Of a DNA stretch of 64,000 bases, positions 14,901-17,900 are shown piece by piece (the stretch's first letter is position 1; each line of letters opens with the position of its first letter). The DNA lies in NCBI RefSeq assembly GCF_054482525.1, contig NZ_CM137006.1; one strand, given 5' to 3'. The position numbers were made by a program.

Positions 14901-17900
14901 TGACGACGCATCAACAGGCAGAGCCAGAATAGCCCACCTGGTTATGACAGAAGGGAGCCGGTTCCCGGTAATCGCTCAGGCTTATTTACGGGAAATACAT
15001 CAGCCACTACAGCAAGCCATGACCCAACTGATTCAGGAAGCAGCATCAGCCGGAGAGTTAAAAGCAGAGCAACTGCTCTGCTTCCCCTGTTTATTGCTGG
15101 CTCCAAACTGGTTTGGCATGGTGTATAACGAAGTTCTGAACCCGGCAGCACCGGTCAGTACAGGCGATCTTTTTGAAGCCGGAATTGGTGCTTTTTTCCG
15201 ATAGACACATAACTGTCAGTATTATGACCATGCCGTCAGGAGGAGGTATACCAGTGATACCCTGCCATGACCCGGTAACGTCTCCTGGCTGCCTTAAACC
15301 TGAAAGACCTGGCCCCACCACACTGCCGGTTACGCAGTCAAGATGCAGCAACCCTTGCATAAGGCTGTTTTGTGCAGAGGGCTACCGGAAAGATAATAAC
15401 GTCACAGCCCGTATGCATCAGATAAAACAGTGTATTTTATCTGTCAGCAGTCACTGGAGCGGATTGTGGGGCGAGATTCAGGTGCTGATACTGTAACGAC
15501 TCTGCGCCGCTGCTGCGGTAAAAGCGGCTGCCACCAGGCACGGTTATCAGAGGAGGATGACCGTGTCCGCCCCTGGTGGTGATGAACTCTCCATCACAAT
15601 CAATAATGCCGCCGGGTGGATGAAGCAGACAGGGATGGCAAGTCCCACCATCCCGGATAAAATGGGCCCTGGGCGCTCAGAAGACCTGTGTGTCAGGCAG
15701 GGGTGAGAACGGTGATGTTTTTTGTTGTCTGAAAGTCCAGCTCCAGCATTGTCTGCCAGCCTCAAGACTTCCGCTTTCTGCCCTTTCCGGCATTTTCTTC
15801 CGTTACCATCATTCTGTTAATTCAGAGGCGTAGTAGTAGTAAACGTAATACATATCCGGGAGGATGAAGTCATCTAATCCTGCTCCCCGAATATCATACA
15901 GCCATTCCTGAGTGTGACTGCACCATTTCCAATTACGCAGTCTGTCCTCATCACAAAAATGTTGCAAGCAGTGCGAAGTCACGTTCCGTATTCATGCCCT
16001 CTGCCAGATATTGAACGGGGGAGAAATGTGTAAGCGTCAACAGAGCGCCGTATTGACACTTATTTATCGGTGAAAACTACGTTCCATGGCAGCAGTTCGT
16101 CAACACGGTTGGAGGGCCATTCCGGCAGTACGCTCAGGATATGGCGCAGATACGCTTCTGGATCGATACCGTTCAACCGACAGCTCCCGATTAGTCCGTA
16201 CAGCAGAGCTCCGCGCTCGCCTCCATGATCGTTGCCGAAGAACATGTAGAACATGTAGATGATATGACCTTTATATACTCACTATAGCATTGGTGGGATA
16301 TTCCAGAGGAGGTCATCATGCATTCGGAAAATATTGCGGCTTACGTCGGGCTGGATGTGCATAAAGAAACGTTGGCGGTTGCTATTGCTGCACCTGAACG
16401 GCTTGGCGAAGTTCGTTATTATGGTACGATTAACAACGAAGCCCAGGCTGTACGTCGATTATTTCAGAAATTGCAGGGACTTTACGGAAACATTCTTTCC
16501 TGCTATGAGGCTGGCCCCTGTGGTTTTGGGCTATATCATCAACTCACAGCGATGAATATAAAATGCCAGGTTATTGCCCCTTCCCGCATACCAAAATCAC
16601 CGACAGACAGAATCAAAAATGATCATCGGGACGCAATTTCTCTCGCCAGGTTACTGCGGGCTGGAGAACTTACCCCTGTCTGGATCCCTGACCTGACTCA
16701 TGAAGCTATGCGGGATCTAATCAGAGCCCGTGCAGCAGCTAAACGAGACAGCAGAGTTGCCCGACAGCGAATTCTGAGCATGCTATTGCGAACAGACAAA
16801 CATTATGCAGGAAAGCACTGGACAGGAAAACATCGAACCTGGTTAGCTAATCAATCATTTAGTCAGCCATCTCAACAGATTGCTTTTCAACACTATTGTC
16901 AAAGTCTGGAGCAGATTGAAGATCGCATACTTCAACTCGACCAGGAAATATCTCGCCTGTTACCTGAGTGGTCTCTGTGCAATCTGGTCTGCCAGTTGCA
17001 GGCTCTTAAAGGTGTTGGTCAGCTAATTGCAATAACTCTGGTTGCTGAACTGGGTGATTTTTCGCGATTTTCCAATCCCAAACAGCTCATGGCTTTTCTG
17101 GGACTGGTGCCAGGTGAATATTCCAGTGGAAACAGTATTCGTCCCAGAGGAATAACAAAAGTTGGAAACAGCGAACTGAGACGTCTGCTTTACGAAGCCG
17201 CCTGGTCTTATCGTACACCTGCAAAAGTTGGGGCATGGCTTATATATTACCGACCGGACTCTGTAACACAATATTCCAAAGATATTGCATGGAAAGCTCA
17301 ACAACGATTGTGTTCTCGTTACCGAAGTCTGACAGCAAAAGGGAAAAAATCACAAGTAGCCATTACGGCGGTGGCTCGTGAGTTGACTGGATTTATGTGG
17401 GATATTGCACTTGCTGCCCAATCATCATTCAGTCAGCAGAAGCAAAATTAAACCCTGAAGCAGTCAGACACGGAATGAGTGATCCTCGTAAAAGAATTCA
17501 GGGAAGCCAGAATGCGCTAATACCTGCACGTAGAAAGAGGCCAGCTCACTGCGTAAATCGTCATGGGGCTAAAATCCCCGAATAAGAGTTTGTAAAATCC
17601 AAGATACAGTCTGACTGTTTCAGGTTCTTTAATCCGCGATATAACGAAGCTCCCGGAGCTGCGTAAGGTCTTTTTGGGCTTAATATTTGACAAAGGTCAT
17701 AAGAATTCTTTTTCCCGAGACAGACGGCACGAAGCGCTCTTTCTGCTGTGTTATTGTCCGCCTCCGCCAGACCGTCATCACTGTAATAACAGAGGGCGTC
17801 CCACTGATTCAGGACATAGCTGAACGCTTCGCCCAGTCGGGATTTTTTCGACAACGTGCCATTCTTCTCCACCATCCATTCATGCAGCGACGTCAGTAAC

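What the first reader, a model, noticed from the sequence alone, without database searches (positions are those of the whole stretch)
16249..17704. IS110-family element (IS1111-like layout) nested inside the tnpC gene of an IS66-family element; about 250-bp 3' end is a candidate bridge-RNA locus
The IS66 TnpC frame is cleanly split: it reads ...GKKN, runs into unrelated sequence at about 17704, and the conserved C-terminus (...YMFFGNDHGGER...IDPEAYLRH...LLPWN) resumes at about 16248. The 1456-bp insert encodes a 377-aa IS110-type recombinase (GLDVHK motif) and has subterminal inverted repeats ATGACCTTT / AAAGGTCAT. IS110-family elements use a non-coding bridge RNA from their long non-coding end to choose target and donor; here that end is 17452-17704. 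The outer IS66 is itself precisely bounded by 8-bp duplications, so the order of events (IS66 first, then IS110-family insertion) can be reconstructed.
Basis: partly seen in the sequence, partly recalled or inferred. Interest (0 to 1): 0.6.

Follow-up and report, generated by a model that had tools for sequence, protein, structure and literature searches.

The report
ISEc45 nested in an IS66 element
A known RNA-guided jumping gene (ISEc45, IS110/IS1111 type) sits precisely inside the transposase gene of another jumping gene (IS66), and its guide RNA matches that site, so the finding is correct but describes a catalogued element.

Summary
Window 16249-17704 is extra DNA relative to an uninterrupted IS66 at the same chromosomal locus in another E. 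coli strain. It is ISEc45, named by NCBI's PGAP annotation and listed among ISfinder IS110/IS1111 elements in both 2024 papers. Durrant et al. 2024 already tabulate it as IS1111 group with the bridge RNA in the right end.

Refinements:
- The insert is a canonical 1447-bp ISEc45 (16258-17704) plus a locus-specific 9-bp tandem duplication of the left flank (16249-16257).
- The RNA occupies 17449-17633, not the whole 253 nt. A covariance model finds it directly 3' of the transposase gene in about 65 related loci, with strong covariation.
- One loop carries AAAAGAAUU, complementary 9/9 to the target's right side, and CACGUAGA, identical 7/8 to the left junction. The other loop carries AAUAAGAG, which matches the element's right end.
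- Relatives from Vibrio, Nitrosomonas, Rhizobium and Planctomycetes with 57-72% identical transposases have the same ends. Most lie at the same codons (KN|WLF) of IS66-family transposase genes; two lie in IS6-family genes.

I found no paper describing this IS66 homing. Expression, circle formation and activity are untested.

The parts
16022..16029 (.). 8-bp target-site duplication of the outer IS66 (AGAAATGT), left copy
   Evidence: Direct reading. The same octamer follows the other IS66 end.
16030..20028 (-). Outer IS66-family element (tnpA-tnpB-tnpC on the - strand). It is 3999 bp including the insert and 2543 bp without it.
   Evidence: Terminal GTAAGCG.../...CGCTTAC ends. ORFs. PGAP annotation of the same locus in L001, L085 and L086.
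16060..16248 (-). C-terminal fragment of IS66 tnpC (YMFFGNDHGGER...LLPWN)
   Evidence: Contiguous with 17705 onward in the uninterrupted copy L087.
16249..16257 (+). 9-bp tandem duplicate (GAACATGTA) of the IS66 flank 16240-16248. It is not part of canonical ISEc45.
   Evidence: The simple junction without it occurs at 100% identity in other genomes. The duplicated junction is in 92 genomes, and all three fetched (L001, L085, L086) are this same locus, as is the window.
16258..17704 (+). Canonical ISEc45 (1447 bp), running GATGAT...CATAAGA
   Evidence: 100% identical copies annotated ISEc45. The same ends occur in other contexts (L002, L003, L088, L089) and in relatives from other phyla.
16264..16272 (+). 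Left subterminal inverted repeat ATGACCTTT, 6 bp in from the left end
   Evidence: Conserved as ATGACC across relatives.
16318..17451 (+). Recombinase gene, 377 aa (D13, E64, D102, D105, S270). A GGAGG ribosome-binding site lies at 16308-16312.
   Evidence: Motif comparison with IS621 residues D11/E60/D102/D105/S241.
17449..17633 (+). Bridge RNA (seekRNA) locus. The closing stem pairs 17453-17473 with 17606-17624.
   Evidence: Covariance model R1 gives 135.8 bits, E 5e-35, the only hit in the window. Fold z-score is -3.98. Covariation.
17489..17499 (+). Target loop, 5' strand (right target guide). AAAAGAAUU at 17490-17498 is complementary to the top strand A|ATTCTTTT (16248 plus 17705-17712).
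   Evidence: 9/9 complementarity. The same position changes with the right flank in other lineages.
17527..17535 (+). Target loop, 3' strand (left target guide). CACGUAGA is identical to the left junction CATGTA|GA at 7 of 8 positions.
   Evidence: It is 8/8 with the IS66 relative on a Klebsiella plasmid (GAACACGTA|GA). In L022 guide and flank co-vary: GGUA with GGTA.
17555..17563 (+). Donor loop, 5' strand (tentative right donor guide). UCGUC could pair with the left-end start GATGA through one G-T wobble.
   Evidence: Register is uncertain. Relatives show UCAUC with GATGA, ACGAC with GTCAT and ACGGAC with GACCGT.
17564..17580 (+). Conserved hairpin inside the donor loop (UGGGG...CCCCG)
   Evidence: 97% of cells paired. 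The G-C to C-G swap (UGCGG/CCGCG) appears in distant relatives.
17581..17588 (+). Donor loop, 3' strand (left donor guide). AAUAAGAG corresponds to the right end ..CATAAGA plus the G of the left end.
   Evidence: Co-variation in L025 (CAUGAGAG with right end CATGAGA) and L042 (AAUAACAG with CATAACA).
17687..17692 (+). TTGACA box in the right end. In a circle it would sit 17 bp from TG-n-TATGAC of the left end.
   Evidence: inferred only. No sigma-70-like promoter was found inside the integrated element. TTGACA-like sequence is conserved in relatives.
17692..17700 (+). Right subterminal inverted repeat AAAGGTCAT, 4 bp in from the right end
17705..19129 (-). N-terminal part of IS66 tnpC, ending ...AVCLGKKN at the junction
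19160..19974 (-). IS66 tnpB (19160-19510) and tnpA (19507-19974)
   Evidence: PGAP names in L001.
20029..20036 (.). 8-bp target-site duplication of the outer IS66 (AGAAATGT), right copy

Best explanation
The insert is ISEc45, an IS110-family element of IS1111 layout. Its DEDD/Ser recombinase is most likely guided by a roughly 180-nt bridge RNA (seekRNA) encoded directly downstream of the recombinase gene.

Shown here: identity, boundaries, the conserved RNA structure, and sequence matches between the RNA loops and the DNA.
- One internal loop matches both sides of a site in IS66-family tnpC. Its 5' strand pairs with the top strand right of the crossover (A|ATTCTTTT). Its 3' strand has the sequence of the top strand left of it (CATGTA|GA) and so can pair with the bottom strand.
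- The second loop matches the element's own joined ends (..CATAAGA|GATGA..).

Inferred from IS621, ISEc11 and related experimental work:
- The element excises or copies out as a circle.
- The abutted ends create a promoter (TTGACA, 17 bp, TG-n-TATGAC).
- The RNA bridges the circle junction and the IS66 site.
- The recombinase exchanges strands at a short core. The core is AG in the donor and in most relatives' targets, and AA in this E. coli IS66.
- Insertion leaves no flanking duplication.

The target is the codon block KN|Y(W) of the conserved GRKNWLF motif of IS66 transposases. The element therefore homes into, and inactivates, IS66 copies.

At this locus the IS66 inserted first, giving the 8-bp duplication. 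ISEc45 then inserted into its tnpC. A 9-bp tandem duplication of the left half-site arose once and was inherited.
For: - Identity: 100% match to annotated ISEc45 in many genomes. Durrant et al. Supplementary Table 5 lists ISEc45 as RE / IS1111.
- Family: Pfam and NCBIfam hits. Invariant D13/E64/D102/D105/S270 in 24 homologues.
- Precise insertion.
- RNA: model R1 finds a full-length match directly 3' of the recombinase gene on the same strand in about 65 of 83 sources, down to 33% protein identity.
- Covariation: 85.7% of cells paired against 61% in shuffles and 40-47% in slid controls. 34 of 40 pairs have compensatory changes, and all 15 pairs of the closing stem co-vary.
- Fold: z-score -3.98.
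- Guides: 9/9 and 7/8 matches to the target, 7/8 to the right end.
- Scaffold versus guides: the scaffold is constant while guide strands differ between lineages.
- Swap controls: each lineage's own guides fit its own junctions better than swapped guides do. Right junction, 14.0 against 11.1 of 17. Left junction at a position fixed by the inverted repeat, 6.3 against 4.5 of 9 including four mislocated ends.
- Natural co-variation: L022, L025, L042/43, L045, L040 and L033.
- Target generality: relatives in five bacterial groups share the ends and lie at KN|WLF of proteins scoring as NCBIfam IS66 transposase.
- Target use in E. coli: 730 records carry the ISEc45-IS66 left junction, against 914 that hold an ISEc45 left end, from two separate searches.
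Against: - No expression data. No promoter-like site was found inside the integrated copy, so RNA production here would need a circle junction or read-through.
- Rfam 15 has no family matching this RNA.
- The A3 alignment was fitted to the model, which inflates pairing counts.
- The basal stem and 5' guide of the donor loop are poorly defined in the gammaproteobacterial group. The right donor guide register is ambiguous.
- The left target guide has one mismatch to this IS66.
- The target core (AA) differs from the donor core (AG), so the core dinucleotide is inferred, not fixed.
- Off-target copies exist: NGF1 hsdS, and L020 in a gene with no family match.
Confidence: 0.88

Rival explanations
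1. ISEc45 lies in IS66 tnpC by chance or through a protein-recognised hot spot. The 3' non-coding region holds only protein-binding and terminator DNA, not a guide RNA.
For: No expression data. No Rfam family matches. The subterminal repeats and the TTGACA box in the right end are DNA-level signals.
Against: The same junction recurs in relatives from distant phyla. Stems keep pairing through compensatory changes, which selection on DNA alone does not explain. Loop sequences change together with flanks and ends.
Confidence: 0.04
2. The element really is 1456 bp, and GAACATGTA is its own left terminus.
For: The 1456-bp query matches at 100% over its full length in many genomes. An AG lies 9 bp upstream of the junction AG, so a circle carrying 9 bp of flank is mechanistically conceivable.
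Against: A full-length match cannot tell the two forms apart, because a simple insertion in this IS66 also reads GAACATGTA|GATGAT. Copies in hsdS (L002), in other IS66 relatives (L003, L089) and on pAA (L088) start at GATGAT. The duplicated junction was seen at one chromosomal locus only.
Confidence: 0.07
3. This copy is a fixed relic that no longer moves. The 9-bp duplication arose by replication slippage unrelated to transposition.
For: The same nested arrangement is inherited in 92 genomes. GA microhomology flanks the repeated unit (GA-ACATGTAGA-ACATGTAGA-TGAT). No internal promoter was found.
Against: The ORF, both ends, the RNA and both flanking half-sites are intact and identical to copies found in many other places. 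Nothing in the sequence disables it.
Confidence: 0.3

Closest known systems
ISEc45 (the ISfinder entry; PGAP name 'IS110-like element ISEc45 family transposase')
   Same: Identical sequence over 16258-17704 and an identical 377-aa recombinase. Durrant et al. 2024 list it as IS1111 group with the bridge RNA predicted in the right end.
   Different: The window copy has 9 extra bp of duplicated flank at the left junction. No paper I could search states its target, guides or RNA structure.
ISEc11, ISKpn4 and ISPa11 (IS1111 family, seekRNA shown experimentally; Siddiquee et al. 2024, PMC11187229)
   Same: Subterminal inverted repeats with short terminal extensions. The non-coding region lies downstream of tnp. 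The RNA segment that matches the top strand lies 5' of the one that matches the bottom strand. Target-derived flanks are part of what the RNA reads.
   Different: The recombinase is 377 aa against 330-350 aa. Identity to ISEc11 is 35% over 128 aa only, and 15-25% to the IS1111-family columns shown from their matrix. The target is different.
IS621 (IS110 group; bridge RNA and cryo-EM structures 8WT6-9)
   Same: DEDD plus Ser catalytic set. Two-loop RNA with left/right target and donor guides. A short shared core.
   Different: In IS621 the RNA is in the left end, upstream of the gene. Its core is CT, its target is REP sequences, and it has no long subterminal repeats. Only the C-terminal domain aligns (E 4e-9).
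[quoted passage not shown] 2024)
   Same: An RNA-guided IS whose natural target is a conserved coding motif in another IS family's transposase gene.
   Different: It belongs to a different subgroup with the RNA upstream. Its victim family is IS3, not IS66. There is no significant protein similarity.
ISSph13 and IS1533 (ISfinder)
   Same: They are the nearest of the seven named reference transposases I compared: 50% and 32% identity. Siddiquee et al. treat IS1533 as an IS1111-family member.
   Different: Their targets and RNAs were not examined here.

Membership tests
IS110 family (DEDD recombinase IS) | N-terminal DEDD_Tnp_IS110 (RuvC-like) domain plus C-terminal Transposase_20 domain | tested here: met
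   PF01548 at residues 10-158 (2.3e-15) and PF02371 at 227-298 (7.9e-23). NF033542 scores 279 bits against a cutoff of 140.
IS110 family (DEDD recombinase IS) | Catalytic D-E-D-D and the Ser of the SG motif | tested here: met
   The motifs GLDVHK (D13), CYEAGP (E64), KNDHRDA (D102, D105) and EYSSG (S270) are invariant or nearly so in 24 homologues. S270 aligns with IS621 S241. The IS621 residues are given in PMC11208158.
IS110 family (DEDD recombinase IS) | Site-specific insertion without a flanking target duplication | tested here: met
   The empty site is restored exactly, with only 1 nt of junction ambiguity. The 9-bp repeat is tandem on one side, not flanking.
IS110 family (DEDD recombinase IS) | Circular intermediate whose junction forms a promoter | not testable with these tools
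   Only the potential is visible: TTGACA, 17 bp, then TATGAC with an upstream TG, across the joined ends.
IS1111 group | Subterminal inverted repeats of 7-17 bp with short terminal extensions | tested here: met
   The 9-bp repeat ATGACCTTT/AAAGGTCAT lies 6 bp and 4 bp from the ends.
IS1111 group | Short left end, long non-coding right end, RNA downstream of tnp | tested here: met
   There are 60 nt before the ATG and 253 nt after the stop. The RNA model hit is at 17449-17633.
IS1111 group | Recombinase clusters with IS1111-type transposases (330-350 aa) | tested here: inconclusive
   The protein is 377 aa. It is 28% identical to IS1111A over 242 aa and 28% to IS4321, against 29% to IS621 over 152 aa. 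Identity is 15-25% to the 49 columns shown from Siddiquee's matrix, which are headed by IS1111-family elements. The Durrant table labels it IS1111. It is a deep branch.
Bridge RNA / seekRNA | Conserved structured RNA in the long non-coding end | tested here: met
Bridge RNA / seekRNA | A loop whose two strands match the two strands of the target on either side of the crossover | tested here: met
   [quoted passage not shown] CACGUAGA is 7/8 identical to the top strand of the left junction. Lineage-specific co-variation.
Bridge RNA / seekRNA | A second loop matching the element's own ends (the donor) | tested here: inconclusive
   The left donor guide AAUAAGAG matches the right end 7/8 and co-varies in L025 and L042. 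The right donor guide is only 4-5 of 5-6 and its register is ambiguous.
Bridge RNA / seekRNA | The RNA is made, binds the recombinase and is required for transposition | not testable with these tools
   No expression or biochemical data are available here.
Bridge RNA / seekRNA | Match to a curated RNA family | tested here: not met
   The Rfam 15 scan of 15500-20500 at E<=1 found nothing in 17449-17704. No Rfam family matched this RNA.
IS66 family (outer element) | tnpA-tnpB-tnpC organisation, 8-bp target duplication, IS66-type transposase | tested here: met
   ORFs. Duplication AGAAATGT. PGAP annotation of the same locus. The rejoined flanks of relatives score 276-464 bits on NF033517.

The most novel reading that the evidence does not exclude
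ISEc45 and its relatives with 57-72% identical transposases form a widely spread lineage found in Gamma- and Alphaproteobacteria and Planctomycetes. They behave as dedicated parasites of IS66-family elements. Their bridge RNA is tuned to the DNA encoding the conserved GRKN|WLF motif of TnpC. Some members sit in IS6-family transposase genes at K(H/Y)|WLW, with altered guides in L021 and L023. The same RNA scaffold, with an AG core, carries other guide sets in Firmicutes, Actinobacteria and Chloroflexi. I could not find this described. The 9-bp half-site duplication at this locus could be a footprint of recombination at an alternative upstream AG.
Probability: 0.45. Interest if true: 0.5.

Novelty: already known. 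Interest (0 to 1): 0.3.

Why it matters
For annotation, this stretch should be labelled as ISEc45 inserted in an IS66-family tnpC. The bridge RNA is at 17449-17633 and there is a 9-bp flank duplication.

Beyond that, the locus offers several natural comparisons:
- A before-and-after pair at one chromosomal site (window against strain 1105).
- Natural guide-target mismatch variants: CATGTA, CACGTA and CATAAA targets against CACGUA and CAUAUA guides.
- A target core (AA) that differs from the donor core (AG).
- A family-wide pattern of one IS family homing into the conserved coding motif of another.

These are useful for people who study the specificity rules of IS1111-type bridge RNAs, or conflict between insertion sequences. 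They extend known biology rather than overturn it.

Tried and rejected
- Rfam scan of 15500-20500 at E<=1 found no bridge-RNA family. The only hit was a sub-threshold AfaR match in the IS66 left end.
- The promoter and terminator scan of 16000-17800 found nothing.
- Fetching the ISEc11 reference locus by accession failed because the record is not in the collection.
- The MAFFT alignment A2 put the gamma and alpha groups one column out of register in two helices. RNAalifold therefore recovered only part of the structure. I supplied a manual structure and re-aligned with the covariance model.
- A free search for the left target guide in a 700-nt zone had no power: own 7.1 against swapped 6.7 of 9. 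I replaced it with a test at a position fixed by the inverted repeat. Four loci there had mislocated left ends.
- A fixed-register comparison of the right target guide failed across groups because the spacer length differs.
- For the basal stem of the donor loop in the gamma group I considered CUGCG/CCAAG and CA(N)UAC/GU(N)UG. Neither is convincing.
- The idea that the 1456-bp form is the true element was rejected on other copies.
- Literature searches for ISEc45, and for IS110 or IS1111 together with IS66, found only resistance-genomics lists and no target description.
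Full report
**What is in the window**

The - strand between 16030 and 20028 carries an IS66-family element with tnpA, tnpB and tnpC. Its ends are GTAAGCG.../...CGCTTAC, and it is flanked by the 8-bp direct repeat AGAAATGT at 16022-16029 and 20029-20036.

The tnpC frame reads ...AVCLGKKN up to 17705. It then runs into foreign sequence and resumes at 16248 with YMFFGNDHGGER...LLPWN. 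Between the two halves, on the + strand, lies a 377-aa ORF at 16318-17451.

**Checking the junction**

- Joining 16248 to 17705 gives a 190-nt query that is 100% identical to intact IS66 tnpC in many E. coli genomes.
- Strain 1105 (NZ_CP023388.1, locus L087) has the same chromosomal neighbourhood (alpha-hydroxy-acid oxidase, YybH, TetR) and the same IS66 copy without the insert.
- Window 13000-16248 aligns to L087 331-3579, and 17704-19720 aligns to 3579-5593. Identity is 99.3-99.4%, with a single shared A at the join.
- The rejoined TnpC is an open 547-aa frame.

The order of events, IS66 first and then the insert, is supported by an orthologous empty site.

**What the insert is**

It matches 'IS110-like element ISEc45 family transposase' loci at 100% identity in many E. 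coli genomes. 1468 of 5426 genomes have some match, and 584 have a near full-length one.

- The protein has Pfam DEDD_Tnp_IS110 and Transposase_20.
- It scores 279 bits on NCBIfam NF033542, 'IS110 family RNA-guided transposase'.
- D13, E64, D102, D105 and S270 are invariant or nearly so in 24 homologues.
- These residues lie in the same motifs as IS621 D11/E60/D102/D105/S241.

**A correction to the boundaries**

The first nine bases of the 'insert' (16249-16257, GAACATGTA) repeat the IS66 flank 16240-16248 in tandem.

- Other copies start at GATGAT and measure about 1447 bp. These include copies in an hsdS gene (L002), in other IS66 relatives (L003, L004, L089) and on the pAA plasmid of O104:H4 (L088).
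- The simple junction ...GAACATGTA|GATGAT... occurs at 100% identity in other genomes.
- The duplicated junction is present in 92 genomes. All three that I fetched are this same chromosomal locus, as is the window.

The canonical element is therefore 16258-17704. The 9 bp are a one-off, vertically inherited feature.

Their origin is open. GA microhomology fits replication slippage. Alternatively, a second AG lies exactly 9 bp upstream (GA[AG]AACATGT[AG]ATGAT), which would fit flank carry-over by recombination at an alternative core.

**The RNA**

The 179 nt after the stop codon fold with a z-score of -3.98.

- I collected 80 loci encoding relatives of the recombinase from one genome per species.
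- The close relatives share a striking downstream pattern.
- A covariance model was built from 22 sequences with a manual structure.
- It finds a full-length match directly 3' of the recombinase gene, on the same strand, in about 65 of 83 sources. These include relatives with only 33-50% protein identity.
- The window has one hit, at 17449-17633 (135.8 bits, E 5e-35).

On the resulting alignment:
- 85.7% of cells pair, against 61% in column shuffles and 40-47% when partners are slid.
- 34 of 40 pairs show changes on both sides.
- All 15 pairs of the long closing stem co-vary.

The alignment is fitted to the model, so these numbers lean towards the structure. The closing stem nevertheless has unrelated sequences in the gamma, alpha and planctomycete groups and always pairs.

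**Anatomy in the window**

| Feature | Coordinates |
|---|---|
| Closing stem | 17453-17473 with 17606-17624 |
| First internal loop, inner stem (CCUC/GAGG) | 17484-17487 with 17537-17540 |
| First loop, 5' strand | 17489-17499 |
| First loop, hairpin | 17499-17526 |
| First loop, 3' strand | 17527-17535 |
| Second loop, 5' strand | 17555-17563 |
| Second loop, invariant hairpin | 17564-17580 |
| Second loop, 3' strand | 17581-17588 |

- AAAAGAAUU (17490-17498) is complementary at 9 of 9 positions to the top strand A|ATTCTTTT spanning the crossover.
- CACGUAGA is identical at 7 of 8 positions to the left junction CATGTA|GA.
- AAUAAGAG equals the right end ..ATAAGA plus the first base of the left end.

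The top-strand match therefore lies 5' of the bottom-strand match. This is the order reported for IS1111-type seekRNAs (PMC11187229). The four guides correspond to the RTG, LTG, RDG and LDG of the bridge-RNA model (PMC11208160).

**Do the loops really read the DNA?**

The scaffold is constant across lineages while the four loop strands differ. They differ together with the DNA:

| Locus | RNA | DNA |
|---|---|---|
| L022 | guide GGUA | flank GGTA |
| L025 | CAUGAGAG | right end CATGAGA |
| L042/43 (Alicyclobacillus) | GCUUUGAGUC / UAAACGCU / AAUAACAG | TTTGA\|GTC / A\|GCGTTT / CATAACA |
| L045 | right target guide | 9/9 |
| L040 | right target guide | 9/9 |

- In a swap control, own guides beat other lineages' guides at the right junction: 14.0 against 11.1 of 17.
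- At a left junction located independently through the inverted repeat, own guides score 6.3 against 4.5 of 9. That figure includes four loci whose left end was mislocated. Several lineages score 8/9 against a maximum of 6 for foreign guides.
- A Klebsiella plasmid copy sits in an IS66 relative whose flank, GAACACGTA|, matches the ISEc45 guide 8 of 8.
- The right donor guide is the weak point. UCGUC can pair with GATGA through one wobble, but the register is ambiguous.

**The target is a rule, not an accident**

Relatives with 57-72% identical recombinases come from Vibrio, Nitrosomonas, Rhizobium and other Alphaproteobacteria, and Planctomycetes.

- They have the same ends: GATGNTATGACC ... 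GGTCATAAGA.
- They have the same flanks...GAA(G/C)AGCCA| and |(G/A)TTCTT.
- Rejoining the flanks gives ...IGRKN|WLFAGS..., in proteins that score 276-464 bits on NCBIfam IS66 transposase.

In E. coli, 914 records carry an ISEc45 left end. 730 records carry that end joined to this IS66-type flank. These are separate searches at record level.

Exceptions exist. NGF1 has a copy in hsdS, which shares the right half-site ATTCTTTT. L020 has one in a gene with no family match. L013 and L021 lie in IS6-family transposase genes at KH|WLW and KY|WLW, whose DNA resembles the IS66 site. L021 and L023 also have an altered right target guide.

The shared core appears to be AG. It is present in the left target guide and left donor guide of every lineage examined. 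This IS66 target has AA, and the UU of the right target guide pairs with that perfectly. The exact crossover cannot be fixed from sequence.

**Expression**

No sigma-70-like promoter or terminator was found inside the integrated element. Joining the canonical ends would place the conserved TTGACA of the right end 17 bp from TG-n-TATGAC of the left end. This matches the junction promoters described for this family. It is inferred, not shown.

**Comparison with what is known**

- ISEc45 appears among the ISfinder IS110/IS1111 transposases compiled by Siddiquee et al. 2024 and by Durrant et al. 2024. It is also named by NCBI's PGAP annotation.
- Durrant et al. 2024 tabulate it as IS1111 group with the predicted bridge RNA in the right end.
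- Siddiquee et al. include its transposase in their identity matrix. It is 15-25% identical to the IS1111-family columns shown.
- My own comparison gives 50% to ISSph13, 32% to IS1533 and 28% to IS1111A. Matches to IS621 are partial only, and there is none to ISEc21.

It therefore has the IS1111 layout but sits on a deep branch.

The closest conceptual precedent for the target is ISEc21, which inserts at the DDE codons of IS3-family transposase genes. I found no paper stating that ISEc45 or its relatives target IS66. I could not consult ISfinder itself.

**Verdict**

The finding is correct and well interpreted, and it concerns a catalogued element of a now well-understood kind. The modest new content is:
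- the explicit RNA anatomy;
- the IS66 KN|WLF homing shared across phyla;
- the IS6 offshoot;
- the before-and-after locus pair;
- the unexplained 9-bp half-site duplication.

Noticed in passing
window 16240-16257: There is a 9-bp tandem duplication GAACATGTA at the left ISEc45 junction. The repeated unit equals the footprint of the left target guide plus the core, and a second AG lies exactly 9 bp upstream. It occurs in 92 genomes; the three fetched (L001, L085, L086) and the window are all this same locus. Slippage versus recombination at an alternative core is unresolved.
   Followed up: partly
L087 (E. coli 1105, NZ_CP023388.1 1035340-1042529): This is the same chromosomal locus with the same IS66 copy but no ISEc45, so it is a natural empty site. 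Its tnpC is annotated as frameshifted, and IS911 and IS30 lie beyond its tnpA.
   Followed up: yes
L089 (K. pneumoniae plasmid p205880-1) 1413-2865: An ISEc45 copy lies in an IS66 relative whose left flank GAACACGTA matches the guide CACGUAGA 8 of 8. The right flank there starts TTTTTC, one A shorter than in E. coli copies, and the element measures 1452 bp.
   Followed up: partly
L013 and L021 (Rhizobium sp. ASV20), also L023: Close relatives of ISEc45 are inserted in IS6-family transposase genes at KH|WLW and KY|WLW. L021 and L023 have a changed right target guide (AAGAAAACAU/C), which suggests natural re-direction from IS66 to IS6.
   Followed up: partly
L088 (pHUSEC2011-2, the pAA plasmid of E. 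coli O104:H4) 2601-4048: ISEc45 lies next to the aatD dispersin-export gene. On its right is the N-terminal part of an ISEc43 (IS66 family) tnpC. The IS66 part that should lie on its left is missing, which suggests an adjacent deletion.
   Followed up: no
window 19950-20039 (+): A sub-threshold Rfam match to the AfaR small RNA (42.8 bits, gathering score 100, E 3.7e-5) lies in the IS66 end upstream of tnpA. It probably reflects IS66-derived sequence in the AfaR seed rather than an AfaR gene.
   Followed up: no
window 20267-21129 (-): Remnants of an IS3-family element lie directly beyond the IS66. In the same locus of other strains they are annotated as ISEc16, frameshifted and truncated. The region is a pile-up of insertion sequences.
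   Followed up: no
L042 and L043 (Alicyclobacillus fastidiosus), L039, L045, L040, L033: Distant relatives (about 45-50% protein identity) keep the same RNA scaffold and AG core. Their guide sets, ends (for example GTCATAATGAAC...GTTCATAACA) and targets are entirely different. L042 also has a second, weak model hit at 5754-5946.
   Followed up: partly
L011 (Gammaproteobacteria MAG) downstream of 3643: This relative has a normal left end, but no RNA model hit follows its recombinase gene, and the downstream sequence looks like coding sequence. The right end may have been replaced or interrupted.
   Followed up: no
window 17634-17686: Between the RNA and the right inverted repeat there is a short hairpin (AGCTCC-C-GGAGCT) followed about 10 nt later by a T run (GGTCTTTTTGG). 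Relatives also have some hairpin here. It could be a 3' end or processing signal, but it did not pass the terminator scan.
   Followed up: no
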